A DNA stretch of 64,000 nucleotides from Arenicellales bacterium (GTDB taxonomy: Bacteria > Pseudomonadota > Gammaproteobacteria > Arenicellales > Poriferihabitantaceae). The stretch lies in the NCBI GenBank assembly GCA_965231905.1, contig CBDDOO010000001.1, positions 696,235-760,234 on the forward strand. The letters are read 5' to 3'. The position numbers and the translations under genes are program-made. Positions 16,732-56,114 of this stretch are shown one piece after another; the stretch's first letter is position 1; every line of letters begins with the position of its first letter. A model generated the notes under the pieces. It did no database searches, had not been told where the DNA came from, and worked only from the letters and a program-made list of their open reading frames with translations.

Positions 16732-16733
16732 CG

Positions 16734-18790: not shown

Positions 18791-18826
18791 CGTGGGGGTG
18801 GTTATGACGGCGGTGTTGATGAATGG

Positions 18827-19741: not shown

Positions 19742-19742
19742 T

Positions 19743-41344: not shown

Positions 41345-41367
41345 GCACTCCCTGCCGACAGACAGTT

Positions 41368-42273: not shown

Positions 42274-43161
42274 TTAATCCTGTTTGGTAAAAGCTTCGAG
42301 CAGCCCGGATGACTGATCGGTTTGCTCGCCCTTGAAACTCTTCATCGCTTCTTCATGCAATATCTCCAGGGCGGTCGCCTTGTATTGGTATGCTTCCCTG
42401 GAGTTCAGCATGTGGAAGTCCCGCGGACGCGGCAGGTCGATATTAATCGTGTGCCTGACCTGTGCCGGTCGGTTTGACAGGATGATCAGTTTATCGGCCA
42501 GAATGATCGCTTCTTCGATTTCTGACGTCACAAACAGGTTGGTGCGCCTGTTTTCTTCAAACAGTTGCAGGAAGAACTGTTGCATCAGTTCTCGTGTCAT
42601 CGCGTCGAGACCCCGGAACGGCTCATCCATGATCAGTACCTGGGGATGGTTGATAATGGCTCTCGCCAGTTCAGCCCGGCGCTGCATTCCGCCTGACAGT
42701 TGAATCTGGTATTTGTCCTTGAAATCACTCAGGCCGACCTTGTCGAGCAGCCGGATCGCTTCTTCATGCAGTTCTTTTTTCGGCATGTCGCCGCGTACTT
42801 TTGGTCCGAACACGATGTTCTGGTAGGTTGTCATCCAGGGCATCAGGGCGGTTTCCTGAAATACCACCATGCGATCATGCGACGGGCCTGTAATCCGGTT
42901 GCCATTCAGCAGCAGTTTGCCGGATTCCGGTTTCTCGAATCCGGCGACCAGGTTAACCAGGGTTGATTTTCCGCAGCCCGACGCGCCGACCACTGCGGTC
43001 AGTTTGCCCGGTTCGATTTCCATGCTGAGATTGAGTACGACATCGTGCCAATCCCACGATTCGCCGTAGCCCTTGCTGACGTTGCGCAGTTCGATGTGGC
43101 CGTTTTCCGGGCTGATCACGGAGGCGGCGTTCCTGGGTTCGGGTTTTGAATTCGCAGTCAT
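42274..43161 (-). CDS. ABC transporter ATP-binding protein (NitT/TauT family), copy 1
   Basis: GASGCGKST, LSGGMQRRA, LIMDEPFRGLD. The ATG at 43161 shares one base with the upstream permease stop. Confidence 0.88.
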   Translation of the reverse strand: MTANSKPEPRNAASVISPENGHIELRNVSKGYGESWDWHDVVLNLSMEIEPGKLTAVVGASGCGKSTLVNLVAGFEKPESGKLLLNGNRITGPSHDRMVVFQETALMPWMTTYQNIVFGPKVRGDMPKKELHEEAIRLLDKVGLSDFKDKYQIQLSGGMQRRAELARAIINHPQVLIMDEPFRGLDAMTRELMQQFFLQLFEENRRTNLFVTSEIEEAIILADKLIILSNRPAQVRHTINIDLPRPRDFHMLNSREAYQYKATALEILHEEAMKSFKGEQTDQSSGLLEAFTKQD

Positions 43162-43988
43162 CAGAACAGTCTTCGCCACGGCATGCAGTAATCACCCAGG
43201 GTGCGGATGGCGCTGCTCGACAGATATCCGGCAATGCCGATACTGATCATGCCGACCACGATCTGCTCCAGAGAACCGCCCATATAGGAATTCCAGATAA
43301 AGAAGCCGAGACCGCCGCCGCCCTGGGTGCCGCCGCCGGAAATCATTTCCGCCGCCACCACCACTTCCCAGGTGATACCCATGCCTACGGCGGCCCCGGT
43401 GAAGATCGAGGGCAGGGATGCCGGCAAGACGATTCGCCAGAACATGTCCCATCGGGTAGCGCCCATCGACTGGGCAGAGCGGAGCAGCCGGATGTCGATA
43501 CTCCTGGCGCCACCAAGCACATTGATTACAACCGTGAAGAACGCGCCGAGAAAGGTCACGAACGCGATTGATAATTCGTTGGTTGGCCAGAAGATCAGCG
43601 ATGCCGGTACCCATGCCAGTGGCGGGATCGGTCGCAGCATTTCAAATGGCGGGAAAAATATCTTCCGGAAGTAACGGTTGACAGCCATCAGCAGGCCGAG
43701 CGGGATACCCACCGCCATCGCGGCCAGAAATCCGAGCAAAACCCGTCTGAAACTCAAATACCAGCTTTCCCAGTAGCCAACCAGCGGAATAACTTCAGTC
43801 CAGGCGAGAAACACCGCTGTCGGTGGTGGGATCAGTCCGATAAACGGCAGCATCGTTCCAGACCAATCGTCCCATCGTGAACCCGTCTCCCACAGTATCA
43901 GCGCGATCATGACGGCTCTAATGCCGCGCCACAGCGAGAGATTCTGTCGCAGTTTCTGCCATCGTGTGCGTCGAACTGTGGTCATCAT
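43161..43988 (-). CDS. ABC transporter permease (NitT/TauT family), copy 1
   Basis: Binding-protein-dependent transport inner-membrane motif (SAQSMGATRWDMFWRIVLP). The ATG at 43988 is preceded by AGGAG. Confidence 0.85.
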   Translation of the reverse strand: MMTTVRRTRWQKLRQNLSLWRGIRAVMIALILWETGSRWDDWSGTMLPFIGLIPPPTAVFLAWTEVIPLVGYWESWYLSFRRVLLGFLAAMAVGIPLGLLMAVNRYFRKIFFPPFEMLRPIPPLAWVPASLIFWPTNELSIAFVTFLGAFFTVVINVLGGARSIDIRLLRSAQSMGATRWDMFWRIVLPASLPSIFTGAAVGMGITWEVVVAAEMISGGGTQGGGGLGFFIWNSYMGGSLEQIVVGMISIGIAGYLSSSAIRTLGDYCMPWRRLF

Positions 43989-44045
43989 CGCTCCTTCAGA
44001 AATATCCGGCTTCTGTTTCCATGTCAAGGTTACTGTGTCTGTTCA

Positions 44046-44879
44046 TCAGGCCAGTTCCCGCTCGCCCGCTTCGAACGCTTTCAGCGCCTCTTCATGCACG
44101 GCCTCATTCGCCTCATCAGCCAGCAAGCGGAATTGCTCCGAGGACAGAACATGGTAATCACGCGGGCGCGGTATCTCTACGTTGAGTATTTTTTTAACCC
44201 GGCACGGTCGGGTGGTCATGACCACCACCCGGTCACCGAGGAATATGGCTTCCTCCAGGTCATGGGTAATAAAAAACAGGGTGACTCTGGTGCGATCATA
44301 CATTTCAAGCAGGGTTTCGTGCATGATGGACTTGGTCAGTTCGTCCATGGCCCGGTACGGTTCATCCAGCAACAGGACTTTCGGATCATTGATCAGCGCC
44401 CGGACGATTTCCGCGCGCCGCGCCATCCCGGACGAGACTTCTCCGGGGTATTTTTCGCAAAAGTCACCCAGTCCGGCTTCAGCCAGCATGTCCCGCGCCT
44501 TCTCCCCGGCCTGCTTTTTGCTCAGCAATCCCTGTACGATCGGGCCATAAGCGACATTGTCAGACAGGGTTTTCCAGGGGAACAGGGCGCCATTCTGGAA
44601 CACTACCACACGGTCCGAGCCCTGGTCGGCGAGAGGCCTGGATGGGCCGCACAACAGTTCTCCGTCAAGATGGATTTCACCTGAGGTGATCGAATGAAAC
44701 CCCGCAATCGCGTTCAGCAGGGTGGTTTTTCCACAGCCACTCGGACCGACCACCATGCAGACTTCTCCTGCCGCGATTTCCAGCGAGCAGTCGTCCACCG
44801 CCATCACATTGACCCCTTCCGGATCGTAGATCTTGGTGACGCTGCGAATGCTTATTTCGCCTTTGCCTGTTTCGGTCAA
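44046..44879 (-). CDS. ABC transporter ATP-binding protein (NitT/TauT family), copy 2
   Basis: GPSGCGKTT, VSSGMARRA, LLLDEPYRAMD. TTG start implied. Confidence 0.85.
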   Translation of the reverse strand: MTETGKGEISIRSVTKIYDPEGVNVMAVDDCSLEIAAGEVCMVVGPSGCGKTTLLNAIAGFHSITSGEIHLDGELLCGPSRPLADQGSDRVVVFQNGALFPWKTLSDNVAYGPIVQGLLSKKQAGEKARDMLAEAGLGDFCEKYPGEVSSGMARRAEIVRALINDPKVLLLDEPYRAMDELTKSIMHETLLEMYDRTRVTLFFITHDLEEAIFLGDRVVVMTTRPCRVKKILNVEIPRPRDYHVLSSEQFRLLADEANEAVHEEALKAFEAGERELA

Positions 44880-44897: not shown

Positions 44898-45776
44898 TTA
44901 TCTGTTTTCCATAGCCAGCGCGCGGGTGCGCCACTGCATCATCCGGTTGCCGACCATTCGCACCATCACCGAAGTCAGCCAGCCCACAAAGCCGAGAGTA
45001 ATCATGCCGATCACCATTGGAACGGTGACATTATTCATGTAGGCAGCCACAATCAGATACCCCAGCCCATAGTCTCCGGAAACCATCTCGGCTGCAACCA
45101 GGGAAAACCAGGCGACCCCGATACTGATCTGCAAGCCGGTGAACATGAACGGCAGCGCTCCCGGAACCACCACGTTCCAGAAGATATGACGGGGTTTGGA
45201 ACCGAGACAGCCGGCGGCGCGGAAATAGGATTCATCAATGGAGTTGACACCGAGCAGGGTGTTCAATGTCGTGACGAACAGCGAAGCCAGCGTAGCCAGG
45301 AATATGACCGGCGCCTCAAACCCCTTGAACATCAGGATGGATAATGGCACCCATGCCAGAATCGGTATCGGCCGCAGGATTTCGAGGAGCGGGAATGTGT
45401 AGTCGCGGAACTTCCGCGACCAGCCCATGAACAGGCCAAGCGGCACCCCGATTCCGGTCGCAATCAAAAAGGCAAAGAAGATGCGGCGGCAACTGACATA
45501 AATGTGCTCGTAGAATTCCTCGGTGAATACCGATATTCCGAGGAACGGTTCCGGTGAGAACAACTCTTTCATCACCACCACCGGACCGGGCATTTTTTCG
45601 AATCGGGGAACCTCGAACGCTTCGCACAATATCCACCACAGCCCGATCCAGAGGCCAATTCCGAGAACCATCAGGTACGGGCCGGATGTTCCCATACGCT
45701 GGCGGAAGCGCACTAAAAAGATGGCTGCGTTACCGGGTGGGCGCCTGTTTGATTGTGCGGGTGCAGTGTTATCCAT
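44898..45776 (-). CDS. ABC transporter permease (NitT/TauT family), copy 2
   Basis: AAGCLGSKPRHIFWNVVVP loop and six TM segments. Confidence 0.85.
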   Translation of the reverse strand: MDNTAPAQSNRRPPGNAAIFLVRFRQRMGTSGPYLMVLGIGLWIGLWWILCEAFEVPRFEKMPGPVVVMKELFSPEPFLGISVFTEEFYEHIYVSCRRIFFAFLIATGIGVPLGLFMGWSRKFRDYTFPLLEILRPIPILAWVPLSILMFKGFEAPVIFLATLASLFVTTLNTLLGVNSIDESYFRAAGCLGSKPRHIFWNVVVPGALPFMFTGLQISIGVAWFSLVAAEMVSGDYGLGYLIVAAYMNNVTVPMVIGMITLGFVGWLTSVMVRMVGNRMMQWRTRALAMENR

Positions 45777-45859: not shown

Positions 45860-46993
45860 TCAGTTCATTGAAGCCTTGATTACGGCAAGCGGACTGGTCA
45901 GACCCCGTTCTTCAAGAATCTGTCGAGCCACGCTGTCAGATACGCCGCCATCGCGGATAGTCGGCGCTGCAGCGGGTTTTTTCGGCAGGCTGTAAAGGAA
46001 CGCGGTGGCGTTGTCGAGCAAGGTCTGTACGCGCTCGGTCACGATGAAATCAAGTTGTACCTTGACTTCGCCGCCACCCTGGTTGGCAGGCCAGCCACCG
46101 AACATCGCATGCCACAGCACCGACTGGTCAATTTTCTCGGTCTGGGATTCGGCCAGCGCCGCAACTTCATCCGCATTGGCTGGATCTGCCATGAAAAGCT
46201 GTGCGTCCAGTTCAGCTTCCAGCCAGCCCTTGTGCACGTCCGGCCGTTGCGAGATCAGGTCGTTCAGCATGACCATGAACGCGCCATCCAGCGCATCGAA
46301 ATCTTCGCCACTGGCCGCGCGCCGGGCGATACCGGACATGACGATCTTGGATGCGGTGGGTTCCCAGATTGCCGCCGCGTCGAGTTTGCCGGCGCGGAAG
46401 TTGGTGGTAATGACCTCAATGTTCTGGTTCAGGTAACGCTCTGGAGTAATCCCCGCTTTCTGGAACGCCAGTTGGGCGAACCGGTCGGTACAGGCGCCAT
46501 GAGGGGCGGAGGTGATCTTGCCGTCCATCCACTTGACTGCTTCGCCGCCATTGGCGAATTCAGGCGCGTCGTTGCGTACCAGGAAAATGTTGCACTGTTG
46601 TTTGGATGTGCCCAGAGCCGCGACGATACGCATGTCTGTACCGCCCCGTTCCTTGATATTGCGGAAAGTCGAGGCAATCGCGGGCATGTCGCCCATGTAA
46701 CCGATGTGCTGCTTTTCGCCGGTCATGGCGTTGACGATAACCGAACCCTGTAACCCGATCTGAAACTCGACGGTTGAACCTTCCGGTAAATACTTTTTCC
46801 ATAATTGCTTACCGTTGTTGACTACTCCAGACCAGGATTCCGTGTAATAAGGCTGGTAACCCACGACCAGATCAACCTCCTCACCCGGGTTCCCGAAATC
46901 GACATCGGCTGACGCCATTTGTGACACGCCGGTTGCCAGTACACAGGCGGCTCCCAGCCTTGTTATTAAACTTGCATACGATTTTCTCATCAT
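45860..46993 (-). CDS. ABC transporter periplasmic substrate-binding protein (NMT1/TauA-like)
   Basis: Signal peptide MMRKSYASLITRLGAACVLATGVSQMASA. It lies 18 nt downstream of the reductase gene. It could be the MsmE equivalent (inference). Confidence 0.75.
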   Translation of the reverse strand: MMRKSYASLITRLGAACVLATGVSQMASADVDFGNPGEEVDLVVGYQPYYTESWSGVVNNGKQLWKKYLPEGSTVEFQIGLQGSVIVNAMTGEKQHIGYMGDMPAIASTFRNIKERGGTDMRIVAALGTSKQQCNIFLVRNDAPEFANGGEAVKWMDGKITSAPHGACTDRFAQLAFQKAGITPERYLNQNIEVITTNFRAGKLDAAAIWEPTASKIVMSGIARRAASGEDFDALDGAFMVMLNDLISQRPDVHKGWLEAELDAQLFMADPANADEVAALAESQTEKIDQSVLWHAMFGGWPANQGGGEVKVQLDFIVTERVQTLLDNATAFLYSLPKKPAAAPTIRDGGVSDSVARQILEERGLTSPLAVIKASMN

Positions 46994-47011: not shown

Positions 47012-48055
47012 TTAATTGAACTTGTCGTAGCGCACCATTTGCGCCGGTATCCGCAAATCCAGAATCAGGGGGCGGATGCAGGCATCCACCATCGGCTGTG
47101 GCCCGGCGATATAGACCATGGTATTGGCCGCTTCCGGCGTGATCGCGGCCAGAGCCGTGTCATGTACCAGCCCGTAGCGGGTAGGCATTGACTCGCCATC
47201 AGAGGAGGTCACGTTGCCGGACGCTTCATCGGATAGCACGACGTTGATCGACAAGGTGTCCGGATGGCGCGCCCGCATCGCTGACAGGCGATCTGCATAG
47301 AACATGTCGGCACGGGTCCTGACACCGAAAAACAAGCTGACCCTGTGTGTATCGAGGTAATCGGTCATTGAAGCCTTTTCGAGGATCGACATCAACCCCG
47401 CGATACCTGAGCCGCCGGCGATCAGAAAAAGGTCGTGTCCTTCATCGGTGTGAAAGGTTGCGCGTCCCAGCGGCCCGAACAATTCAACTTCGTCCCGGTC
47501 GCGCGCTTCATCGAAAGCCCACCCAGAAAAAGCGCCGTCCGGTTTTCTCTTGATGACGAACTCAAGGGTATCCGTCTGCGGTTCAAAATTAACCATTGAG
47601 TAGGCGCGGCGCCCGGATATTCCCGGAGCCTGGATGGCAAAAAACTGACCGGCATGGAACCGCGCCGGCCGGGGTAGCCTGACTTCAAAGCGGGCCACAT
47701 CCGCAGTCAGCCGACCCCAGTTTGAGGCGACGCCGATGTAATGGTCGGGGCGGAAGTCGTCATCGCGAAAAGGCTGGAGCCGGGCCGGGACGGTCAGGTT
47801 GCAGTCCGATTGCGCGGTGGCCTGGCACAACAGGAATTCCTTTCTCGCCGCCCGCAGGTTTTTCCGTCCGGGCGCCTCGGCCCAGCCCGGGTCCAGTTCG
47901 CCCTGATCCAGTCGCGCGCGACAGGTCCCACAGGTTCCGGTCGCGCATTCGTAGGGCAATGGAATGCCGGCTCGCAATCCGGCATACAACAGCTTTTCAT
48001 TGGCCAGAGCGTCAAATCGGTGAACCTGGTCCTTTTTTGCAATTTCGATCAGCAT
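47012..48055 (-). CDS. msmD: oxygenase reductase component (plant-type 2Fe-2S ferredoxin + FAD/NAD(P)-binding domains)
   Basis: CATGTCGTCRA cluster motif at the N-terminus, then FNR-like RAYS and GGSGIAG motifs. Fourth gene of the oxygenase set. Confidence 0.75.
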   Translation of the reverse strand: MLIEIAKKDQVHRFDALANEKLLYAGLRAGIPLPYECATGTCGTCRARLDQGELDPGWAEAPGRKNLRAARKEFLLCQATAQSDCNLTVPARLQPFRDDDFRPDHYIGVASNWGRLTADVARFEVRLPRPARFHAGQFFAIQAPGISGRRAYSMVNFEPQTDTLEFVIKRKPDGAFSGWAFDEARDRDEVELFGPLGRATFHTDEGHDLFLIAGGSGIAGLMSILEKASMTDYLDTHRVSLFFGVRTRADMFYADRLSAMRARHPDTLSINVVLSDEASGNVTSSDGESMPTRYGLVHDTALAAITPEAANTMVYIAGPQPMVDACIRPLILDLRIPAQMVRYDKFN

Positions 48056-48085
48056 GGCCGCGTCCAACTTGCTTGAAAATCCCGC

Positions 48086-48433
48086 TTAATCATCGTCTTC
48101 GTCATCAAACTCATATTCCAGTTCCTGCTCCAGGAAAACCAGGATCTGACCCTCTTCGTCTTTTATCGGGTACATCAGCAGGGGCTTTTCAGCCGGACCG
48201 CGCGGCTCTCCGGTTTTCATATCCCATTGCCAGAGGTGGCGGTCGCAGGTCAGGATCCCGTCCTGACACAGCCCCGAGTTTTCCAGGTATTCCTCCATGT
48301 GAGGACAGACCGGCGGATAAGCCCGATAGGTCTCGCCGATTTTGGCGATTACCAGTTCAATACCGTCAATCTTCACCGCTTTTAGCGCATGATCCGATAT
48401 GTCATCTGCCGCACAGGCAATTTTCCAGCTCAT
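48086..48433 (-). CDS. msmC: Rieske-type [2Fe-2S] ferredoxin component
   Basis: CPH-X17-CDRH motif. 115 aa with an acidic tail. Confidence 0.8.
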   Translation of the reverse strand: MSWKIACAADDISDHALKAVKIDGIELVIAKIGETYRAYPPVCPHMEEYLENSGLCQDGILTCDRHLWQWDMKTGEPRGPAEKPLLMYPIKDEEGQILVFLEQELEYEFDDEDDD

Positions 48434-48479
48434 TGTCGGTTTTTGCCTTAAGGTTCCTGTTCAGTAAAATCGGATTGAT

Positions 48480-49007
48480 TCAAATCGGCCAGTGCGAACC
48501 CTTGTCCAGCCGCCGCGTGTCCAGCCGCACCTCCCTTTCGGCAAATTTGATTTCGTCTTCTCCAATCAGGAAGCGATCATTGTAACGGCCGACCAGAAAC
48601 AGCCTTGATTCACCTGCGTCAACATGCGAGTTGATGCCGTCCAGTTGCGTCTGAAAAACCGTGAAAGAGGTTACCGCAGTAGCGGATTTGCCGTCATCGG
48701 CAATATCGACCCGGTACACCACGCCATGCCGTTTCAGGGGCGAGGTATCCGAGTTATGTTTCGGCAGCATCCCGGTCAATTTCGCCATGTAGTCCCGGTT
48801 GCCGCTGATATAGGTCATGTCGGCCTGGATCTCGGGACTGTATGCCCGGATCGCATACTCGAAGTTCTCAGCGCACAGATTCAGCCATGAGTCCCAGTCC
48901 AGGTCGTCCTGGAGCAGGCAGGTGGTGTAGATCAATTCCTTGATCTTCTCCCGGGTCAGGGAGTTGTCTGCGGGCATTGCCATTTTCTGGTTGGTCTTTT
49001 GATTCAT
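48480..49007 (-). CDS. msmB: ring-hydroxylating-oxygenase-type small (beta) subunit
   Basis: 175 aa with the length and pattern of the NTF2-like beta-subunit family. It starts 16 nt after the alpha subunit gene. Confidence 0.7.
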   Translation of the reverse strand: MNQKTNQKMAMPADNSLTREKIKELIYTTCLLQDDLDWDSWLNLCAENFEYAIRAYSPEIQADMTYISGNRDYMAKLTGMLPKHNSDTSPLKRHGVVYRVDIADDGKSATAVTSFTVFQTQLDGINSHVDAGESRLFLVGRYNDRFLIGEDEIKFAEREVRLDTRRLDKGSHWPI

Positions 49008-49023
49008 TGGTTACACTCCCGGA

Positions 49024-50304
49024 TTACATGCTCGCGCTGGCGCGTTGTGTGTTGTCCGCGACACTTTGCATCTTGTGAGCGGCAAAGTTCATATCCGGAT
49101 TGCCTGGCGATCGGTCCAGCCAGCGTCCCCATTCCTCATAATAGTGGCGCATGCCGTTTTCATCGTGGATAGTCTCGTTCTCATGCCGGCCGTGCAGGAT
49201 AGTCCGCTTTTCGGCGGAAGGGTGCATGCAGGCGCCCTGGGCGGTTACCGCGAGCAGGTCTTCATGCAGGTTGCGACCGAACGGCCCCCAGATCGAATTA
49301 TGATGGTCAATTCTGGTCTGGCGCTCGGCTGGCGTATCGCTGGCCAGGCCCAGCCCCCGAAACTCGATCATCACCCGGTCCGGTCCAAGCGGGGTCATCA
49401 GGTCGCAGCGCAGCGCCGAGCCGCGCAGGTTGAAATTGACTCCCGGGAACATGTCGATCATGTACCAGTGATTCGGCGGCAGGTGCGGGAAAGACAGCGC
49501 TTCACGCGATTCAAACCCTTCATACTGGTCATACTGAACCTCAAAACTGCCGACATTGATATGACCATTCCTGAAACCGCTGTTCTTGCGCGCGAAGTAG
49601 GCGTCGTTAAACCCGGTGATCCGGTTATGGTAATGCAGAAAGTCATGATAGAACTCACAGTTGGTATCATGCCACAATTTGTAATTGCAGGGGATGATCG
49701 CCTTGTGGTAGTGAAACACTTCCAGCGGCTCCTCGTTGAGTGACGGCGCCAGACAATCCAGAGCGCCGGCTGCGAATTCATCGACAGTCATGCTGATGTC
49801 GTCATCCAGGCTGACCCATACGAAACCACCGAACCAGACCTCACACTTGAGTTCCCGCAAGCCGACGTCCGCAGTGCACAGGCGATCCTGATAACCTTCT
49901 TCCCGGCGCGTGATATTGACACATCGGCCCCTCATGTCGAATTGCCAGGCGTGGAACATGCAGGTCATGGTTTTCGGCGTACCCGACGGGGCGCCGCGCT
50001 TGAAGCTGCCGGCCGGCCGGCGCTCGATCATGTTGCCGCGATGAGGGCATACATTCAGAAAGGCGCGAACCTTGAGGTCCTTGCCGCGTACCACGATTAC
50101 CGGCTCCCTGGCGATGGTCATGGTGCGAAAGTCATAGGCATTTTTCAATTCGGATTCATGGCAGACCGGAATCCAGGTTCTTTTCCAGATCTTTTCCAGT
50201 TCTTCCTCGAAGATGCGCTGGTCGGAATAGATTCTGCTGTCCACCCATTCACCGGGTTGCAGGTTCGGGGTTGCGGTCCATTGGGCATGATTTCTTGATG
50301 ACAT
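49024..50304 (-). CDS. msmA: Rieske oxygenase large (alpha) subunit with CXH-X26-CXXH spacing, candidate methanesulfonate monooxygenase hydroxylase
   Basis: The motif CPH-RGNMIERRPAGSFKRGAPSGTPKTMT-CMFH has 26 residues between the Cys-His pairs (counted). This unusual spacing was reported for MsmA. The four-component context fits. Confidence 0.7.
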   Translation of the reverse strand: MSSRNHAQWTATPNLQPGEWVDSRIYSDQRIFEEELEKIWKRTWIPVCHESELKNAYDFRTMTIAREPVIVVRGKDLKVRAFLNVCPHRGNMIERRPAGSFKRGAPSGTPKTMTCMFHAWQFDMRGRCVNITRREEGYQDRLCTADVGLRELKCEVWFGGFVWVSLDDDISMTVDEFAAGALDCLAPSLNEEPLEVFHYHKAIIPCNYKLWHDTNCEFYHDFLHYHNRITGFNDAYFARKNSGFRNGHINVGSFEVQYDQYEGFESREALSFPHLPPNHWYMIDMFPGVNFNLRGSALRCDLMTPLGPDRVMIEFRGLGLASDTPAERQTRIDHHNSIWGPFGRNLHEDLLAVTAQGACMHPSAEKRTILHGRHENETIHDENGMRHYYEEWGRWLDRSPGNPDMNFAAHKMQSVADNTQRASASM

Positions 50305-50361: not shown

Positions 50362-51252
50362 TCAGCCGGCCTGTTTCAGCCGGGATTCCCAGTTAACCTG
50401 TTTGGCGAACTTTTCCAGTTCTTCGGGTTTCATGTAGATAGTGTGTTCCGGGCCAGGGTAGATCCGTTCCCTGACTTCGTCCCGGTAGCGGATAAACACG
50501 TCTTCCATGATCGGAATCAGGTCGGTGTAGATTTTCGAGTGTCTCGGTACATGTTCCTCATACAGATGGAACAGGTCGGACGTAATGATATGCACCCCAT
50601 GCGCCTTGTTGCCGGCGCCCAGACTGATGACAGGCACCGGCAACACTTCCGTCAGGTATTGACACAATTCCTCGGAAGTGACTTCGCACATAATCGAGAA
50701 ACAGCCCGCATCCACCATGGCCCAGGCGTCATCGACCAGTTCTTTCGCCCGGTCAGCGGTTTTCCCCTGCGCGAAGAAGCCGCCCAGTTGTGGCATCCGC
50801 ATCGGCGTAATGCCGATGTGGCCCTGCACCGGAATACCGGCCTTCACAATCGCCTCGATATTTTTAGCGTGATGCTGGTTGCCTTCGCATTTCATCACCT
50901 CGGCATTGGCCTCGGAAACGAACCGGCCCGCGTTTTCAACTGCCTGGTCAGGAGAGACATGGAAGCTCCAGTAAGGCATATCCACCATCCGCAGGCCATA
51001 CTGGCTGCCACGGTCAATCGCTTTCGCCATCATCATGACTTCGTCGAAAGTCACCGTGACGGTTGACTTGTGTCCGAACAGAATCATGCCGCCGGTATCG
51101 GATACACACAGAATGTCGATTCCCAGGCGGTCTGCGATGACGGCGCTGCGGTAATCATAGATTGCCATTTGCACGATCTGGTCATCTTCGCGCATCTTTC
51201 GTTGCAGGTCTCTGATCGTGACCTTTTTTCTTCTCGTGGCCGCTTCCGACAT
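50362..51252 (-). CDS. 3-methyl-2-oxobutanoate hydroxymethyltransferase (PanB) family paralogue
   Basis: By eye it is collinear with E. coli PanB (AIYDY, VSDTGGM, DMPY, KCEG, GHIGITP, ISLGAG, YPGPEH). It is the first gene of the msm string, 57 nt upstream of msmA. Confidence 0.75.
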   Translation of the reverse strand: MSEAATRRKKVTIRDLQRKMREDDQIVQMAIYDYRSAVIADRLGIDILCVSDTGGMILFGHKSTVTVTFDEVMMMAKAIDRGSQYGLRMVDMPYWSFHVSPDQAVENAGRFVSEANAEVMKCEGNQHHAKNIEAIVKAGIPVQGHIGITPMRMPQLGGFFAQGKTADRAKELVDDAWAMVDAGCFSIMCEVTSEELCQYLTEVLPVPVISLGAGNKAHGVHIITSDLFHLYEEHVPRHSKIYTDLIPIMEDVFIRYRDEVRERIYPGPEHTIYMKPEELEKFAKQVNWESRLKQAG

Positions 51253-51441: not shown

Positions 51442-52191
51442 TCATGATCCCGCTATTTTGAACAGAATGAACAGGCCGACCAGAATCATCAGTATCGAGA
51501 CGCCTTTTTTCAGGTAATCGGTGGGTACGGCATGAGCGAGGCTGGCGCCCACGATTGACCCGCACGCCAGCGCCAGCGCAAGGCCGGCGCTCAACCTGAG
51601 GTCAATCTGCCCATACAGGGCATTCCCCAGGGTGGCCAGCAGGGAAATCGGGATCTGGATGACCTGGGACAAACCGATTGCGGTCAATATCGGTACCCGC
51701 AACCAGATCAGAACAGGTACCAGCAGCAGTGGTCCGCCGGTCCCGGTCAGCGCCGAACCGACGCCGGTAGCGAAGCCGATCACCAGCAGAGCGTTGCCCA
51801 GTGTTGCCGGTTTACGCCCGCTTTCGTGTTGCCTGTCGGCAAGAGTATGGATACCGGAAAAAAGAACAGCTGCGGCGATGCCGGCTTCGAGCGCAAGGGC
51901 CGGGACAAAGGGCAGCAAAAAGGCGCCGAGAAAAGCTCCCGGCAGGGCGCCCAGACAAACCCGGGCCGCCATGCCATGGTCAATCGTGCCATGTCGCGCA
52001 TAGATGACGGCCCCTACCGTGCCGGTCACGATGTAACTCAGATTGCAGGCCGGTATGGCGACATGGAGCGCCACGTCACCGAGGTACTTCAGCGCGGGTA
52101 CCAGCAGAACCCCGCCGATGCCGATACTACCGATCAGCGCGCCGATGAGGATGATGACGATAGCGAGTGACAGGCTGAACGGGAAAAACAT
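51442..52191 (-). CDS. TauE/SafE-family sulfite exporter-like membrane protein
   Basis: Glycine-rich polytopic protein (IGIGGVLLVPAL, GVGSALTGTGGPLLLVP). The ATG at 52191 is preferred to the longer ORF. Confidence 0.75.
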   Translation of the reverse strand: MFFPFSLSLAIVIILIGALIGSIGIGGVLLVPALKYLGDVALHVAIPACNLSYIVTGTVGAVIYARHGTIDHGMAARVCLGALPGAFLGAFLLPFVPALALEAGIAAAVLFSGIHTLADRQHESGRKPATLGNALLVIGFATGVGSALTGTGGPLLLVPVLIWLRVPILTAIGLSQVIQIPISLLATLGNALYGQIDLRLSAGLALALACGSIVGASLAHAVPTDYLKKGVSILMILVGLFILFKIAGS

Positions 52192-52326
52192 GTTGGCTGA
52201 CTTCGGTTCGGGTATCTGCACAATCGAGCGCCGGATCATGCCAAAGTTTGCGGTTCGATGATAGACTAGCGGGCAAGCCTCCATAAAGATCCTTGCGCCA
52301 TGCCCTGTACAAACCGGTAATCAGCC

Positions 52327-53244
52327 TTGTTTCTCAGACAGTTTCAATATCTGGTTGCTCTGGAACAGGAAGGCCACTTTGGCCGCGCTGCGGAAAAATG
52401 CCACGTTTCCCAGCCCAGTCTGTCCAGCGCGCTGAAAAGCCTCGAAGAAGAACTTGGTATTCCGATCATTCTCAGGCAGCACAAATTCCAGGGTTTTACC
52501 GAAGAAGGCAAGCGGGTGGTCAGTTGGGCAAAGCGGTTGCTGGCGGACCGGTCGGCGATGCTGGAAGAGTTGGCCATCATGCAGAAAGACCTGCATGGCC
52601 GACTCAGAATCGGCGCTACCCCGATGAGTTCACCCCTGTTTCCGACCGTTAGCCAGTTGTTCCAGAAGCGCCATCCGGGCTTGCAGATCGACATTCAGTT
52701 CATGGCGCTGGATCGGCTGGTACTGGGGCTGACCAACTTTGAGATTGATGTCGGCATCACCTATCTGGACGATCCATCCCTTGCGCGTTTTGTCGCCTTG
52801 CCCTTGTATGAAGAGCCTCTTTATCTGCTGCTTCCCGACAATGACTGGCTGGATGACAGTTCCACCATTTCATGGCAGGAAGCGGCTGCGCTGCCACTAT
52901 GCCTGCTTTCCAAATCAACCCGTGAACGGCGGGTGATGGATGACGCATTCACCAGTGTCGGCCGTCAGCCGACCCCGATCCTGGAATCCAATTCCATTTT
53001 CCAGCTCGCCTTCCATGCGATGGCGGGGGACCTGGCCACCATCGTACCGAAACGCTTTGCGCATTTGCCCAACACACGGCAGAAAATGCTGGTCAAGCCA
53101 AGCGTGGTGCAAACTCTCGGCCTGATCTGGGTCTACGGTAATCCGGTTTTGCCGATGGCCAGCGCGACCAGTACGCTGTTGCGCGAAGCGCTGGAATCCG
53201 GCTTGCTGGAAGAATTCAGCCTGGTCGGCAACAAGGGCGGCTGA
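52327..53244 (+). CDS. LysR-family transcriptional regulator
   Basis: The N-terminal HTH reads LRQFQYLVALEQEGHFGRAAEKCHVSQPSLSSALKSLEEELG. It is divergent from the TauE-like gene. TTG start implied. Confidence 0.88.
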   Translation: MFLRQFQYLVALEQEGHFGRAAEKCHVSQPSLSSALKSLEEELGIPIILRQHKFQGFTEEGKRVVSWAKRLLADRSAMLEELAIMQKDLHGRLRIGATPMSSPLFPTVSQLFQKRHPGLQIDIQFMALDRLVLGLTNFEIDVGITYLDDPSLARFVALPLYEEPLYLLLPDNDWLDDSSTISWQEAAALPLCLLSKSTRERRVMDDAFTSVGRQPTPILESNSIFQLAFHAMAGDLATIVPKRFAHLPNTRQKMLVKPSVVQTLGLIWVYGNPVLPMASATSTLLREALESGLLEEFSLVGNKGG

Positions 53245-53315: not shown

Positions 53316-54755
53316 CTACCCCCAGGGCAGTGAGAAGGTCTTGACGGTGGTGTAGCTTTTCATGGCTTCGATTACGCCTTCCTTGTAACCGAGGCCGGAA
53401 TCCTTGACGCCGCCGAATGGCGACATCTCGGTACGGTATCCGGGCACCTCGCGGATGTTGACGGTGCCGGTCATCAGTTCATTGACGAATCGGTTGATGT
53501 ATTCGAGGTTGTTGGTGCAGACCCCGCTGGAAAGTCCGAAAGCCGTCGAGTTTGCAACCCGGATGGCGTGATCGATGCCGGTTACCCGGATAATCGGAAT
53601 CGGCGGGCCAAAGGTTTCCTCGCGCACCAGCTCACAATCAAACGGAACGTGATCAAGTACTGTGGGCGAATAGACCGCGCCCTGGCGGTCGTTGCCGTAT
53701 AACAGCTTCGCGCCCTTGCCGATGGCGTCATTCACCCGCGCCTCGAACAGGAGCGCCGCCTGTTCGGTGATCACGGTACCGACATCGGTGTCGGGGTCCA
53801 CAGGGTCCCCGTATTTGAGCCGGGCGGCTTTTTCGGCCACCCGCTCCGCAAACTCATCGGCAATTGACTCGACCGCCAATATGCGTTTTACCGCGGTACA
53901 TCGTTGCCCGGAATTGCGGGTGGCGCCCTGCACCGCCATTTCCGCCGCCTCATCCAGGTCCGCGTCCTCCATGACAATCAATGGTGAATTGCCGCCGAGT
54001 TCCAGTACCGTGCGTTTGTAACCGGCGGTCGCGGCGATATATTTACCGACCGGAACACTGCCGGTGAAGGTGATCAGGTCGATATTCGGATTGGTGATCA
54101 TTTCGTCGCCGATATCGCCGGGCAGCCCGGTCACGACAGACAGCATCGGTGGCGGCAGTCCCGCCTCAAGCAGTACATCCGCCAGCGCCAGTGCGGTCAG
54201 CGGGGTCAGTTCGGTGGGCTTGGCCACCATACAGTTGTTGGTCGCAATCGCCGGAGCGATCTTGTGGGAGATCATGTTCAGCGGATGGTTGAAAGGCGTG
54301 ATCGCCGAGATGGCGGTCAATGGCTCACGCTGCGTGAAAATCTTTCTTTTCTTGCCGTGGGGGGTCAGGTCGCAGGAGAAAATTTCGCCGTCATCCAGAA
54401 TACACAACTGGCTGGTCAGATTGAAAACGTCACAGGCGCGTCCGACTTCATACAGACTGTCCCTTTTTGACAGGCCGCATTCGGCAGTGATCAGATCCGA
54501 GAACCGATCCTTTTGTGTAGCCAGCGATTGTGCGGTTTTCGCCAGGATCTGCTGGCGTTGATAGCGGCTCAGTTGTGGCCGGTAAGCGGCGGCGGCCGCA
54601 AATGCGTCCGCCACCTGTTCGCGGCTGGCGCGGGGAACCGTACCCACCACTTCGTCGGTAAAGGGGTTGATGACTTCAACCAATTTGCCCGTATCCCCAT
54701 CCACCAGCACTCCTGCAATACGCATTTTCCACTGGTTGGCGCTGGAAGTATTCAT
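53316..54755 (-). CDS. phnY: aldehyde dehydrogenase, GapN-like; candidate phosphonoacetaldehyde dehydrogenase
   Basis: ALDH motifs ELGGNSP and the catalytic [12 protein letters not shown] (GapN/PhnY-like). It lies immediately downstream of the phnA-like gene. Confidence 0.6.
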
Positions 54756-54794
54756 CAGGGACTCTCCTGTTCGGTCAGGGGCAAAAGTCGTCCG

Positions 54795-56114
54795 CTAGTG
54801 AGCAAGGCGGTTGAGAACGATGTCGAATATATCGAAATTCCGCAGTCGGGGAGGCCAGTCCGTATCCAGGGCCGGATCCGGCTTGCGGTTGAAAATCAAC
54901 GGTACGGTTTGCTCGCTGATACCCCCGTGCGAACGCAACGGCGCTTCCAGTCCTGAGAGATCGTGCCGGTCTGCGCTGGTACCGATCACGGCGCTCCTGT
55001 CTGACAGCACGATGAGGTCGCCCATACGGTCCCGGGCCAGCCCGAATTGCGCACATCCGTCCGCGTTGGAAATCGCCAGCTCAATACCCGCAATCTCGAC
55101 CAGCCTGGAGGCGAGTTCACCCAGTCGGGCAGTGTCTTCAAGATAAATGGTCGCAAAAGAACCGAGCGCGCCATGATGAACGACGTAAGGGTCGGTGATC
55201 GGCAGTATGACCCGGCCATTACCCGCGCCCAGCAGATCGTCCACCTCGTCCTGCAGGTATATTACATTGGGTTGGCCATCGCTATCGTGTTTGGCGTTCA
55301 TGCCGTGGTCCGCAGTCAGGCCGATGATCGCGCCCAGCTCGTCCAGTTGGCTCCAGTAATCGTCCATCATGGCATAGAACCGGTTGGCGTCGGCGCTGCC
55401 GGGGGCGAATTTATGCTGAATGTAATCCGTTGTGGACAGATACATGATATCCGGCCGGACCGATTCCATCAGTTTTACCCCGGCCTTGAAAATAAATTCC
55501 GAAAGCCCGGCGCTGTAGACCGGAGGCACGTCCATACCCACCATATCAACCACATTGTCGATGCCGTTGCGGTGGATGCTGGCCTCGCCGGATTTCTCCG
55601 ACGAGAAACAGATCGCCGCATTGCTGTCACGGCTGCCGTCCAGACACAATCCATGGCCAAGCAGCTTTCTGAGCTTGTCTTTCGCGGTGATGATGGCGAT
55701 TTTCGCGCCGGCGTCCTGGAATGCCTTGAACAGGGTCGGAGCGCGCAGTAATGCCGGGTCATTCATCATGACTTCAGCCCCCGTCTCCCGGTCATAATAG
55801 AAGTTCCCGCAGATACCGTGAACTTCCGGGAGGACCCCGGTGACGATGGACATGTTGTTCGGATTGGTGAAGCTGGGTATCACGCAATCTCCCCGTAAAT
55901 CGAGGCCGCGTCCAGCGGCGCCATGCTCGTCTGCCTCCCTTGAATCAGTCCGTTTGCCGCCGATCAACTGCGCCATCCAGGGCATGGCTCCCGCCCGGAT
56001 CGCCTCGGTGATATAGTCCGGTTCCGACCCGTCGACACAGACGACCACGACGGGTTGTTGCGGCCAGGCATATTCCCGGTCATTGACGATAATGGCAGGC
56101 TTGATGGGTGGCAT
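54795..56114 (-). CDS. phnA: phosphonoacetate hydrolase (alkaline phosphatase superfamily)
   Basis: The metal-site start reads VVVCVDGSEPDY and the nucleophile motif is IPSFTNPNNMSIVTG, as in PhnA/NPP enzymes. 439 aa. Confidence 0.7.
   Translation of the reverse strand: MPPIKPAIIVNDREYAWPQQPVVVVCVDGSEPDYITEAIRAGAMPWMAQLIGGKRTDSREADEHGAAGRGLDLRGDCVIPSFTNPNNMSIVTGVLPEVHGICGNFYYDRETGAEVMMNDPALLRAPTLFKAFQDAGAKIAIITAKDKLRKLLGHGLCLDGSRDSNAAICFSSEKSGEASIHRNGIDNVVDMVGMDVPPVYSAGLSEFIFKAGVKLMESVRPDIMYLSTTDYIQHKFAPGSADANRFYAMMDDYWSQLDELGAIIGLTADHGMNAKHDSDGQPNVIYLQDEVDDLLGAGNGRVILPITDPYVVHHGALGSFATIYLEDTARLGELASRLVEIAGIELAISNADGCAQFGLARDRMGDLIVLSDRSAVIGTSADRHDLSGLEAPLRSHGGISEQTVPLIFNRKPDPALDTDWPPRLRNFDIFDIVLNRLAH

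What the first reader, a model, noticed from the sequence alone, without database searches (positions are those of the whole stretch)
47012..50304. Four-component Rieske oxygenase with the MsmA-type CXH-X26-CXXH motif: candidate methanesulfonate monooxygenase
The alpha subunit has exactly 26 residues between CPH and CMFH. The usual Rieske spacing is 16-18 residues. From memory, the 26-residue spacing is the hallmark reported for MsmA of Methylosulfonomonas methylovora. The gene order is alpha, beta, Rieske ferredoxin (CPH-X17-CDRH), then a reductase with an N-terminal plant-type 2Fe-2S domain. This order and the subunit sizes (426/175/115/347 aa) match msmABCD. A sulfonate-type (NitT/TauT) ABC importer follows directly. 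The described MSA degraders I recall are mostly Alphaproteobacteria, so this cluster in an apparently gammaproteobacterial context would be notable.
Basis: partly seen in the sequence, partly recalled or inferred. Interest (0 to 1): 0.6.

Follow-up and report, generated by a model that had tools for sequence, protein, structure and literature searches.

The report
Methanesulfonate monooxygenase and importer gene cluster
This is a complete, intact set of genes for importing methanesulfonate and splitting it into formaldehyde and sulfite, a well-known system, here in a sponge-associated type of gammaproteobacterium, where it turns out to be common rather than unusual.

Summary
On the minus strand, 47012-50304 encodes a Rieske oxygenase alpha subunit (426 aa, CPH-X26-CMFH), a beta subunit (175 aa), a Rieske ferredoxin (115 aa, CPH-X17-CDRH) and a reductase with plant-type 2Fe-2S, FAD and NAD domains (347/351 aa). 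A NitT/TauT-type ABC importer follows directly.

The alpha subunit nests in a tight MsmA clade (at least 68% identity, 161/161 full-length members with X26). It is 71-73% identical to MsmA of Filomicrobium, a genus with strains isolated on methanesulfonate. It matches 179 of 183 positions conserved in the alphaproteobacterial subclade. The whole locus (LysR, TauE, PanB-like, msmABCD, msmEFGH, a second ATPase) is syntenic with published msm loci.

The claim that a gammaproteobacterial setting is notable is not supported. The 36 best of the 80 related species genomes listed are nearly all Gammaproteobacteria. A 2015 tree already had a Beta/Gamma branch, and IMG already names these proteins methanesulfonate monooxygenase.

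One nuance: X26 also occurs in a 46-47%-identical sister clade with an unrelated gene context, so the spacer alone is not diagnostic.

Verdict: a new member of a known kind, of low to moderate interest. The most interesting side point is a very highly conserved PanB paralog immediately upstream of msmA.

The parts
49024..50304 (-). msmA: hydroxylase alpha subunit, 426 aa. Rieske ligands are C86/H88/C115/H118 with a 26-residue spacer. The catalytic domain carries invariant E217, H220, H224 and H226.
   Evidence: SD AGGAGA upstream. RHO alpha fold, TM about 0.7.
48480..49007 (-). msmB: hydroxylase beta subunit, 175 aa, 20.1 kDa.
   Evidence: SnoaL_4 / Ring_hydroxyl_B. Homolog present in 77/80 msm loci; 55% identical to Filomicrobium.
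48086..48433 (-). msmC: Rieske-type ferredoxin, 115 aa, CPH-X17-CDRH, with an acidic C-terminal tail EYEFDDEDDD.
   Evidence: The same acidic tail is present in Filomicrobium MsmC. Present in 77/80 loci.
47012..48067 (-). msmD: NADH-dependent reductase with plant-type 2Fe-2S (C41-X4-C-X2-C-X29-C), FAD and NAD domains. It is 351 aa from TTG 48067 or 347 aa from ATG 48055.
   Evidence: (BenC/MmoC-like). Present in 72/80 loci.
45860..46993 (-). msmE: periplasmic substrate-binding protein, 377 aa, NMT1_2/SsuA family. The N-terminal signal peptide was read by eye.
   Evidence: 70% identical to Filomicrobium MsmE.
44898..45776 (-). msmF: ABC permease, 292 aa.
   Evidence: BPD_transp_1, TauC/SsuC/NtrB-like. 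69% identical to Filomicrobium.
44046..44879 (-). msmG: ABC ATPase, 277 aa.
   Evidence: ABC_tran, TauB-like. 82% identical to Filomicrobium.
43161..44027 (-). msmH: second ABC permease, 288 aa.
   Evidence: BPD_transp_1. 76% identical to Filomicrobium.
42274..43179 (-). Second ABC ATPase, 301 aa, overlapping msmH by 19 nt. It is the probable second nucleotide-binding subunit of the importer and is unnamed in the msm literature.
   Evidence: Present in 61/80 loci. Listed after msmH in Filomicrobium Y (PMC4433239, Table 1).
50362..51252 (-). PanB paralog (ketopantoate hydroxymethyltransferase family), 296 aa, 57 nt upstream of msmA. It is a putative C1/formaldehyde-handling partner.
   Evidence: Pfam 265.8 bits but below both NCBIfam panB cut-offs. 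31.7% identical to E. coli PanB, with active-site equivalents conserved. Present in 67/80 loci at a median of 82% identity. Adjacent to msmA in all 6 independent places examined.
51442..52284 (-). TauE/SafE-family sulfite exporter. The true start is probably the internal ATG near 52192.
   Evidence: Pfam TauE, 123.5 bits. Present in 55/80 loci and in the Filomicrobium Y cluster (PMC4433239). Sequence read.
52327..53244 (+). Divergently transcribed LysR-family regulator, the probable regulator of the cluster.
   Evidence: HTH_1 + LysR_substrate. Present in 65/80 loci in the same divergent position. Also in the Filomicrobium Y cluster (PMC4433239).
38804..42081 (-). GldA-like ABC ATPase (41368-42081) and a fused GldF/GldG-like ABC-2 permease/auxiliary protein (38804-41371). 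Membership of the system is uncertain.
   Evidence: Homologs follow the msm transporter in 25/80 loci. A 243-aa + 875-aa ABC pair sits at the same place in Filomicrobium Y (PMC4433239, Table 1).

Best explanation
The region is a functional msm locus: a four-component, NADH-dependent Rieske monooxygenase (MsmABCD, methanesulfonate monooxygenase) co-transcribed with its dedicated ABC importer.

Proposed mechanism (inferred from the characterised enzyme, not shown here):
- MsmE binds methanesulfonate in the periplasm.
- MsmF/MsmH, with MsmG and the second ATPase, import it.
- Electrons pass from NADH to the MsmD FAD, then to the MsmD plant-type 2Fe-2S cluster, the MsmC Rieske ferredoxin, the MsmA Rieske cluster (C86/H88/C115/H118), and finally the mononuclear iron of the neighbouring alpha subunit.
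- O2 is activated there and the methyl group is hydroxylated.
- The resulting hydroxymethanesulfonate collapses to formaldehyde and sulfite.
- Sulfite leaves via TauE or is oxidised elsewhere.
- Formaldehyde is probably passed into the folate C1 pool, possibly with the help of the PanB paralog encoded just upstream.
- The divergent LysR protein probably controls the operon.

Shown here: gene content, motifs, clade membership and synteny. Inferred: substrate, electron path, operon structure, and the roles of TauE, PanB-like and LysR.
For: - **Motifs and domains:** all confirmed.
- **Homologs:** there are 1335 homologs. The top 120 are at least 69% identical, and many are named methanesulfonate monooxygenase large subunit by IMG, including a member of the window protein's own 90% cluster.
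- **Spacer distribution:** 161/161 full-length homologs carry X26. Among 50%-identity cluster representatives, X26 is confined to this clade and one sister group; all other relatives have X16-18, with rare X12, X19, X20, X23 and X24.
- **Tree:** the NJ tree nests the window protein in a gammaproteobacterial subclade. That subclade is sister to the alphaproteobacterial one holding Filomicrobium and Methylobacterium. Both are separated by a long branch from X17 relatives at 39% identity or less.
- **Conserved positions:** 179 of 183 positions that are at least 97% conserved in the alpha-like set are identical in the window. The four differences are R/K, M/L, G/A and G/A.
- **Synteny:** all eight msm genes plus the second ATPase, PanB-like, TauE and LysR are syntenic with 80 species genomes. 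They are also syntenic with the published cluster of the MSA-grown Filomicrobium strain Y. Locus L059 from F. insigne reproduces that cluster's gene lengths and spacings exactly (PMC4433239 Table 1; PMC4424283).
- **Gene arrangement:** the colinear ABCD-EFGH arrangement matches Sargasso Sea clone EF103447 (PMC4433239).
- **Subunit masses:** they match the purified enzyme (PMC4433239).
- **Alternatives score poorly:** no NCBIfam equivalog for another oxygenase comes close to its cut-off; the best is 93.9 bits against 830.
Against: - No enzyme from the gammaproteobacterial subclade has, to my knowledge, been assayed.
- 70-73% identity to the alphaproteobacterial enzymes leaves room for a shifted substrate range.
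- The sequence of the biochemically characterised M. methylovora M2 enzyme could not be retrieved under its own name. The anchor is therefore a congener of an MSA-growing strain plus Methylobacterium sequences, not M2 itself.
- The window shows no sulfite dehydrogenase, GcvT-like gene or recognisable formaldehyde-oxidation genes. The physiological use (sulfur, energy or carbon) is open.
- X26 alone is not proof of function.
- The AF2 model is unreliable over residues 86-147, so the role of the insertion is untested.
Confidence: 0.85

Rival explanations
1. It is the same enzyme architecture, but the physiological substrate in this gammaproteobacterial subclade is a different small sulfonate rather than methanesulfonate. 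Candidates are ethane- or propanesulfonate, isethionate, sulfoacetate, or a host- or alga-derived C2-C3 sulfonate.
For: - Identity to the alphaproteobacterial enzymes is only 68-74%.
- MsmE, the specificity-determining binding protein, is 70% identical to the Filomicrobium one and only 47-60% identical to many others.
- A sister X26 clade evidently has another substrate.
- The window also carries other organo-phosphonate scavenging genes typical of symbionts.
Against: - 179/183 highly conserved positions are retained.
- The accessory set (TauE, PanB-like, LysR) is the same as in MSA growers (PMC4433239).
- A conserved C1-transfer-type gene next to msmA fits a one-carbon product.
- A C2 or longer product would give an aldehyde needing a dehydrogenase, and the conserved cluster has none.
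Confidence: 0.08
2. It is an aromatic ring-hydroxylating dioxygenase, as NCBI's pipeline names it, acting on an aromatic acid or a sulfonated aromatic compound.
For: - NCBI names for close homologs are 'aromatic ring-hydroxylating dioxygenase subunit alpha'.
- The best PDB sequence hits are cumene and biphenyl dioxygenases.
- The best folds are salicylate 5-hydroxylase and terephthalate dioxygenase.
Against: - Those matches cover mainly the Rieske domain (residues 21-221), at 94 bits or less. NCBIfam scores are about one tenth of the cut-offs.
- Identity to any solved structure is 22% or less.
- There are no cis-dihydrodiol dehydrogenase or ring-cleavage genes nearby.
- The transporter is sulfonate-type, and a sulfite exporter is linked.
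Confidence: 0.02
3. It is a quaternary-amine Rieske monooxygenase (glycine betaine GbcAB, carnitine CntAB or stachydrine type) that releases formaldehyde or trimethylamine.
For: Weak NCBIfam hit to GbcA (83.8 bits). CntA is among the best structural matches. Sponge symbionts are rich in such substrates.
Against: - The GbcA cut-off is 670 bits.
- Those enzymes are two-component, with no beta subunit or separate ferredoxin.
- The linked importer is the NitT/TauT sulfonate type, not BCCT/ProU.
- The protein belongs to a clade with proven MSA oxidisers.
Confidence: 0.01
4. The cluster is present but not used: a decaying or silent remnant in a reduced symbiont genome.
For: The nearest relatives are MAGs of host-associated bacteria of 2.1-2.5 Mb, where gene loss is common. 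The GcvT-like gene present in many other msm loci is missing here.
Against: - All 12 or more ORFs are intact with tight spacing, and the SD sequence is good.
- All metal ligands and conserved positions are retained.
- Three sister MAGs keep the whole locus at 84-97% protein identity, which indicates purifying selection.
Confidence: 0.03

Closest known systems
Methanesulfonate monooxygenase MsmABCD of Methylosulfonomonas methylovora M2, Marinosulfonomonas methylotropha TR3 and 'Ca. Filomicrobium marinum' Y (EC 1.14.13.111)
   Same: - Four components in the order A-B-C-D.
- CXH-X26-CXXH in the alpha subunit, a Rieske ferredoxin, and a reductase with plant-type 2Fe-2S, FAD and NAD domains.
- Subunit masses agree.
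- MsmA is 71-73% identical to the Filomicrobium protein.
- The same accessory genes are present: LysR, TauE, PanB-like and the extra ATPase.
   Different: - The host is a gammaproteobacterium (Arenicellales-type), not an alphaproteobacterial methylotroph.
- msmEFGH lies colinear downstream of msmD instead of divergent.
- MsmB, MsmC and MsmD are only 44-55% identical.
- There is no adjacent SoxCD or GcvT-like gene.
- Activity is untested.
Sargasso Sea metagenome msm clone EF103447 and SAR116 (Ca. Puniceispirillum marinum IMCC1322) msm loci
   Same: These are marine, uncultured-type msm clusters with X26. In EF103447 the two operons point the same way, as they do here (PMC4433239).
   Different: Those sequences are low-GC (36-38%) and alphaproteobacterial. 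This window is about 55-58% GC and gammaproteobacterial.
MsmEFGH methanesulfonate ABC importer (NitT/TauT family; relatives SsuABC, TauABC)
   Same: It has an SsuA-family binding protein, two TauC/SsuC-like permeases and a TauB-like ATPase in the order E-F-G-H. The components are 69-82% identical to the Filomicrobium ones.
   Different: A second ATPase gene overlaps msmH, giving a two-permease, two-ATPase importer. The literature names only four genes, although the fifth is present in Filomicrobium Y too.
X17 'MsmA-annotated' Rieske oxygenases (Methylibium, Methyloversatilis type) and the X26 sister clade (P0168)
   Same: They are homologous alpha subunits with beta and ferredoxin partners. 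P0168 shares the 26-residue spacer.
   Different: They are only 34-47% identical. The X17 proteins lack the insertion. P0168 sits with GntR, SDR, aldehyde dehydrogenase and TctC genes and has no sulfonate importer, TauE or PanB-like gene. The window protein is not of these types.
FMNH2-dependent alkanesulfonate / methanesulfonate monooxygenases SsuD / MsuD
   Same: They carry out the same net chemistry on methanesulfonate (C-S cleavage to aldehyde plus sulfite) and are used for sulfur scavenging.
   Different: They are an unrelated fold (TIM-barrel luciferase family) with a flavin reductase partner. Nothing of that kind is in this locus.

Membership tests
MsmABCD methanesulfonate monooxygenase | Alpha subunit Rieske motif CXH-X26-CXXH (the 26-residue spacer reported in every proven MSA grower) | tested here: met
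   C86PH-X26-C115MFH. The spacer consensus is shared with 161/161 homologs. Literature: PMC4433239, PMC5068391.
MsmABCD methanesulfonate monooxygenase | Alpha subunit falls inside the clade containing MsmA of organisms shown to grow on methanesulfonate | tested here: met
   The NJ tree and identities place it in the tight clade (at least 68% identity) with Filomicrobium and Methylobacterium sequences. Caveat: the M2 and TR3 sequences themselves were not available, and the tree is NJ without bootstrap.
MsmABCD methanesulfonate monooxygenase | Mononuclear non-heme iron site in the catalytic domain (two His plus a carboxylate) and a bridging acidic residue | tested here: inconclusive
   E217 and H220 align with the D-x-x-H of cumene dioxygenase. 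H220, H224, H226, D349 and D381 are invariant in the family. The second His and the carboxylate ligand could not be assigned without coordinates.
MsmABCD methanesulfonate monooxygenase | Separate beta subunit (about 20 kDa), Rieske-type ferredoxin and reductase (about 38 kDa) with plant-type 2Fe-2S, FAD and NAD domains, encoded in the order A-B-C-D | tested here: met
   The same order is seen in 72-77 of 80 related loci.
MsmABCD methanesulfonate monooxygenase | Genetic linkage to the msmEFGH importer | tested here: met
   msmE starts 18 nt after msmD. The components are 69-82% identical to the Filomicrobium MsmE-H proteins.
MsmABCD methanesulfonate monooxygenase | NADH- and O2-dependent conversion of methanesulfonate to formaldehyde plus sulfite; induction by, and growth on, methanesulfonate | not testable with these tools
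   This requires enzyme assays or culture. No cultured representative of this lineage was identified.
Aromatic ring-hydroxylating dioxygenases (HcaE, BenA, AntA, AndAc equivalogs) | Score above the curated NCBIfam equivalog cut-off, with a full-length match | tested here: not met
   The best hit is HcaE at 93.9 bits against a cut-off of 830, matching residues 21-221 only.
PanB (3-methyl-2-oxobutanoate hydroxymethyltransferase), for the upstream gene | Score above the curated panB equivalog cut-off; conserved Mg2+ and catalytic residues | tested here: inconclusive
   Scores are 204.1 against 207.55 (TIGR00222) and 245 against 272 (NF001452), both just below the cut-off. Equivalents of E. coli D45, D84, K112, E114, H136 and E181 are conserved (the residue roles are from my own knowledge of the 1M3U structure).

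The most novel reading that the evidence does not exclude
The PanB paralog immediately upstream of msmA is an unrecognised, near-universal component of methanesulfonate catabolism. The evidence for the linkage:
- It is present in 67 of 80 msm loci across Alpha- and Gammaproteobacteria.
- Its median identity is 82%, better conserved than MsmB, C, D or E.
- Catalytic residues are kept, but it scores below the curated panB cut-offs.
- It was next to msmA in all six independent metagenomic places checked.

On this reading it does not make pantoate. Often together with a GcvT-family protein, it captures the formaldehyde released by the monooxygenase and transfers it to tetrahydrofolate or to a 2-oxoacid. 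This would make the pathway non-toxic and would feed the C1 pool in non-methylotrophic marine and sponge-associated bacteria.
Probability: 0.35. Interest if true: 0.5.

Novelty: new member of a known kind. Interest (0 to 1): 0.25.

Why it matters
Methanesulfonate is a major atmospheric oxidation product of dimethylsulfide, and it returns to the sea in very large amounts. Knowing which organisms can mineralise it matters for sulfur-cycle budgets.

This locus adds a complete, intact msm system in an Arenicellales / Poriferihabitaceae-type, sponge-associated gammaproteobacterium. Together with the 80 related genomes, it shows that the system is widespread in marine Gammaproteobacteria, not mainly an alphaproteobacterial methylotroph trait.

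It also exposes an annotation gap. NCBI's pipeline has no MsmA model and calls these proteins generic aromatic ring-hydroxylating dioxygenases.

The conserved PanB paralog and the second ATPase suggest that the textbook 'msmABCD + msmEFGH' description of the system is incomplete.

Tried and rejected
- **M2 sequence:** I tried to obtain the characterised M. methylovora M2 MsmA sequence by searching with the Filomicrobium protein and by listing members of ten clusters. No entry was labelled as M2, so Filomicrobium insigne L059 and Methylobacterium sequences were used as anchors.
- **Primary papers:** De Marco 1999 (PMC93639) and Jamshad 2006 (PMC1352215) are not held.
- **Source record:** an exact look-up of the window's own MsmA contig failed, so the source record is unknown. 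Taxonomy rests on near-identical syntenic MAGs.
- **Structure:** the AF2 model has pLDDT below 50 across residues 86-147, which include the X26 insertion. Nothing can be said about the insertion's structure. The fold search only confirms a generic RHO alpha fold.
- **Promoters and terminators:** the scan found no more sites than shuffled sequence gives. The sigma-70-like site at 51420-51391 upstream of the PanB-like gene is only a lead.
- **Palindrome:** a 14-bp perfect palindrome at 42017-42047 looked like a terminator. It lies inside the GldA-like ORF and is not conserved in 90 related loci, so it was dropped.
- **Rejected functions:** aromatic dioxygenase and quaternary-amine monooxygenase readings were considered and rejected.
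- **Mobile element:** a mobile-island origin was considered. GC content is uniform and the flanks are syntenic with sister MAGs.

Full report
**Observation**

The region 47012-50304 carries four consecutive minus-strand ORFs:
- 49024-50304, 426 aa
- 48480-49007, 175 aa
- 48086-48433, 115 aa
- 47012-48067, 351 aa from TTG, or 347 aa from an ATG four codons in

Pfam assigns them as follows:
- first ORF: Rieske + Ring_hydroxyl_A
- second ORF: SnoaL_4 / Ring_hydroxyl_B
- third ORF: Rieske
- fourth ORF: Fer2 + FAD_binding_6 + NAD_binding_1

A regex count confirms three motifs:
- C86-P-H, 26 residues, C115-M-F-H in the alpha subunit
- CPH-X17-CDRH in the ferredoxin
- C-X4-C-X2-C-X29-C in the reductase

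An AGGAGA ribosome-binding site precedes the alpha-subunit ATG. Calculated masses are 49.4, 20.1, 13.2 and 38.4 kDa. The purified methanesulfonate monooxygenase components are reported as 48, 20, 16 and 38 kDa (PMC4433239).

**Surroundings**

The same strand continues without a break. Gaps are 16-83 nt, and one gene pair overlaps by 19 nt. The downstream genes are:
- an SsuA/NMT1-family binding protein (45860-46993)
- a permease (44898-45776)
- an ATPase (44046-44879)
- a second permease (43161-44027)
- a second ATPase (42274-43179)

A GldA-like ATPase and a fused GldF/GldG-like 855-aa protein follow.

Upstream of the alpha subunit lie three further genes:
- a ketopantoate-hydroxymethyltransferase (PanB) paralog (50362-51252)
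- a TauE/SafE sulfite exporter (51442-52284)
- a divergently oriented LysR regulator (52327-53244)

The rest of the window is ordinary chromosomal content with uniform GC. It includes PfkA, fumarase, LutABC-like genes, NorB, a peptidase, an ABC sugar/polyamine-type system, ProC, Asd, methylmalonyl-CoA mutase and propionyl-CoA carboxylase.

**What the oxygenase is**

A search of 5.8 billion proteins gave 1335 homologs. The best 120 are 69-100% identical, and many carry IMG's name 'methanesulfonate monooxygenase large subunit'. A member of the window protein's own 90% cluster has that name too.

NCBI's pipeline calls the same proteins 'aromatic ring-hydroxylating dioxygenase subunit alpha'. No NCBIfam model fits. 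The best is HcaE at 93.9 bits against a cut-off of 830, covering only the Rieske half.

No solved structure is closer than about 22% identity. The best sequence hit is cumene dioxygenase at 9e-26. An AlphaFold model has the Rieske-oxygenase alpha fold (TM about 0.7 to NagG, TPADO and CntA). It is unreliable over residues 86-147, which include the insertion.

**Is X26 diagnostic?**

The literature states that every organism proven to grow on methanesulfonate has the 26-residue spacer. It states that other oxygenases have 16-18 residues, and that X17 proteins annotated as MsmA have no supporting data (PMC4433239, PMC5068391).

I tested the distribution directly. All 161 full-length homologs of at least 68% identity have X26. 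Among the best 150 representatives of 50%-identity clusters from 1.84 billion proteins, X26 occurs only in this clade and in one sister group (P0168 at 47%, plus the shorter, probably partial P0169, P0174, P0188 and P0190). Almost every other relative has X16-18. Rare X12, X19, X20, X23 and X24 spacers occur among relatives of about 34% identity or less (X23 and X24 at 25-28%). Two relatives lack the Cys/His ligands entirely.

The sister group's context is GntR, alpha, beta, ferredoxin, short-chain dehydrogenase, aldehyde dehydrogenase and TctC. It has no sulfonate importer, TauE or PanB-like gene. So the spacer is a clade-specific nine-residue insertion. It is a good marker only together with overall similarity. 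It is rare, but not strictly exclusive to msm loci.

**Placement**

An NJ tree puts the window protein in a gammaproteobacterial subclade with Arenicellales, Poriferihabitaceae, Njordibacter and Granulosicoccaceae sequences. That subclade is sister to an alphaproteobacterial one containing Filomicrobium, Methylobacterium, Hansschlegelia, Methyloligella and Methylocella. All of these lie on a long branch away from X17 relatives of 39% identity or less.

In a 199-sequence alignment, 183 columns are at least 97% conserved among the 108 sequences closer to Filomicrobium. The window matches 179 of them. The four differences are R/K, M/L, G/A and G/A.

I could not retrieve the M. methylovora M2 sequence under its own name. 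The anchor is locus L059 of Filomicrobium insigne. Its msmA-D and msmE gene lengths and intergenic spacings are the same, to within one base, as those tabulated for the MSA-isolated strain Y (PMC4433239 Table 1). Strain Y shares 97.9% 16S rRNA identity with F. insigne (PMC4424283).

**Synteny**

tblastn of fifteen window proteins against 80 species-representative genomes carrying a relative gave the following:

| Gene | Loci with homolog (of 80) |
|---|---|
| msmB | 77 |
| msmC | 77 |
| msmD | 72 |
| msmE-H | 58-62 |
| second ATPase | 61 |
| PanB paralog | 67 |
| TauE | 55 |
| LysR | 65 |

Against Filomicrobium, identities are:

| Protein | Identity (%) |
|---|---|
| MsmA | 73 |
| MsmB | 55 |
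| MsmC | 45 |
| MsmD | 44 |
| MsmE | 70 |
| MsmF | 69 |
| MsmG | 82 |
| MsmH | 76 |
| second ATPase | 70 |

This matches the published remark that MsmA is well conserved while MsmB, C and D are not (PMC5068391).

Of the 58 loci with msmE in the held DNA, 25 have the transporter colinear downstream of msmD, as here and as in Sargasso clone EF103447. In 27 it is divergent, as in M2 and Filomicrobium, and in 6 it lies upstream on the same strand (PMC4433239). The published Filomicrobium Y cluster lists the same accessory genes: LysR, TauE, 3-methyl-2-oxobutanoate hydroxymethyltransferase, an extra NitT/TauT ATPase, and a 243-aa + 875-aa ABC pair. It also has GcvT and SoxCD, which the window lacks.

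**Host and novelty**

The three closest loci (95-97% MsmA identity, syntenic over 21 kb including the neighbouring phosphonate genes) are MAGs labelled Arenicellales or Candidatus Poriferihabitaceae. This is a family of Arenicellales, Gammaproteobacteria, and the family name appears in a sponge metagenome report. So the gammaproteobacterial context is real.

It is not unusual, however:
- The 36 best of the 80 species genomes listed are almost all Gammaproteobacteria: Njordibacter, Granulosicoccaceae, Chromatiales, Thioglobus and Acidiferrobacterales.
- The 2015 MsmA tree already shows a Beta/Gamma branch (PMC4433239).
- Landry et al. 2018 list methanesulfonate monooxygenase in the E01-9C-26 gammaproteobacteria, a group first seen in sponges (PMC6003095).

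What remains missing, to my knowledge, is any biochemical or physiological test in a gammaproteobacterium with msmABCD.

**Mechanism (inferred from the characterised enzyme and Rieske oxygenase biochemistry)**

- MsmE binds methanesulfonate, and MsmF/MsmH with two ATPases import it.
- NADH reduces the MsmD FAD.
- Electrons pass through the MsmD plant-type cluster and the MsmC Rieske ferredoxin to the MsmA Rieske centre, then to the mononuclear iron of the adjacent alpha subunit. E217 and H220 align with the bridging Asp and first His of cumene dioxygenase. H224, H226, D349 and D381 are invariant.
- Hydroxylation of the methyl group gives hydroxymethanesulfonate, which falls apart into formaldehyde and sulfite.
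- TauE would export sulfite.
- The fate of the formaldehyde is not encoded in the window, apart from the PanB paralog.

**Side finding**

The PanB paralog is the best conserved accessory gene. Its median identity across msm loci is 82%, and all of its 120 best database hits are at least 87% identical. It is 31.7% identical to E. coli PanB, with the residues I recall as the Mg2+ and catalytic residues conserved. It scores just below both curated panB cut-offs.

In six independent metagenomic places, close homologs sit immediately upstream of msmABCD-EFGH, usually after a GcvT-family gene. A role in trapping or transferring the C1 unit released from methanesulfonate is plausible but untested.

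**Verdict**

The functional interpretation is supported with a confidence of about 0.85. The claimed taxonomic novelty is not supported. This is a new member of a known system, useful mainly as an annotation correction and as a pointer to two conserved but unnamed components of msm loci.

Noticed in passing
window 50362-51252 (-); also L085-L090 9001-9879: A PanB paralog lies directly upstream of msmA. It is present in 67/80 msm loci at a median of 82% identity, which is better conserved than MsmB-E. It is 31.7% identical to E. coli PanB with active-site equivalents kept, and it scores just below the NCBIfam panB cut-offs. It was adjacent to msmA in all six independent metagenome places checked.
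   Followed up: partly
window 42274-43179 (-): A second TauB-like ATPase gene overlaps msmH by 19 nt and is present in 61/80 msm loci and in the Filomicrobium Y cluster. The importer therefore seems to have five genes (E, F, G, H plus a second nucleotide-binding subunit), not the four named in the literature.
   Followed up: partly
window 38804-42081 (-): A GldA-like ABC ATPase and a fused GldF/GldG-like 855-aa protein (ABC2_membrane + DUF7088 + ABC_transp_aux) follow the msm importer. A pair of matching size sits at the same place in Filomicrobium Y, and homologs follow the transporter in 25/80 loci. Its function and its relation to methanesulfonate are unknown.
   Followed up: partly
L081-L084 (P0168, gene at L081 1240-2511): A sister clade of alpha subunits (46-47% identical) also has the 26-residue Rieske spacer. 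It lies in a GntR, alpha, beta, ferredoxin, SDR, aldehyde dehydrogenase and TctC context in soil metagenomes. Its substrate is probably different, so X26 alone does not identify MsmA.
   Followed up: partly
window 53316-56114 (-): Phosphonoacetaldehyde dehydrogenase PhnY (763.8 bits, cut-off 635.65) and phosphonoacetate hydrolase PhnA (525.9 bits, cut-off 407.55) lie next to the LysR gene. This is a 2-aminoethylphosphonate degradation module, shared only with the three closest MAGs (L001-L003).
   Followed up: partly
L085-L090 (about 14867-16219 in L085; 13679-14398 in L088): In other marine msm loci the MsmF permease carries an N-terminal cyclic-nucleotide-binding domain (450 aa). Some loci have an extra Rieske + cNMP_binding gene between msmD and msmE. 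Most have a GcvT-family gene between TauE and the PanB-like gene. The window lacks all three.
   Followed up: no
proteins P0177 and P0184 (relatives at 34-36% identity): These are full-length relatives of the alpha subunit with no Rieske Cys/His ligands. They are reminiscent of the ligand-less 'MsmA' of GOS, virome and phage HMO-2011 sequences mentioned in PMC4433239.
   Followed up: no
window 6715-8426 (+): An IS1595-family transposase (DDE_Tnp_IS1595 + zinc ribbon) is followed, with a 4-nt overlap, by a D12-class N6-adenine DNA methyltransferase. GC content is lower across 2-10 kb (0.48-0.50 against about 0.56 elsewhere).
   Followed up: no
window 42017-42047: A 14-bp perfect palindrome with a 3-nt loop lies inside the 5' end of the GldA-like ORF, in frame, encoding RYGGKTAVS. 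It was flagged by the terminator scan but is not conserved in any of 90 related loci.
   Followed up: yes
window 15889-22016: There is a LutA/LutB/LutC-like lactate-utilisation cluster (CCG, LUD and 4Fe-4S domains) on the plus strand. A NorB-type nitric oxide reductase with a fused cytochrome c-like domain lies at 19743-22016 on the minus strand.
   Followed up: no
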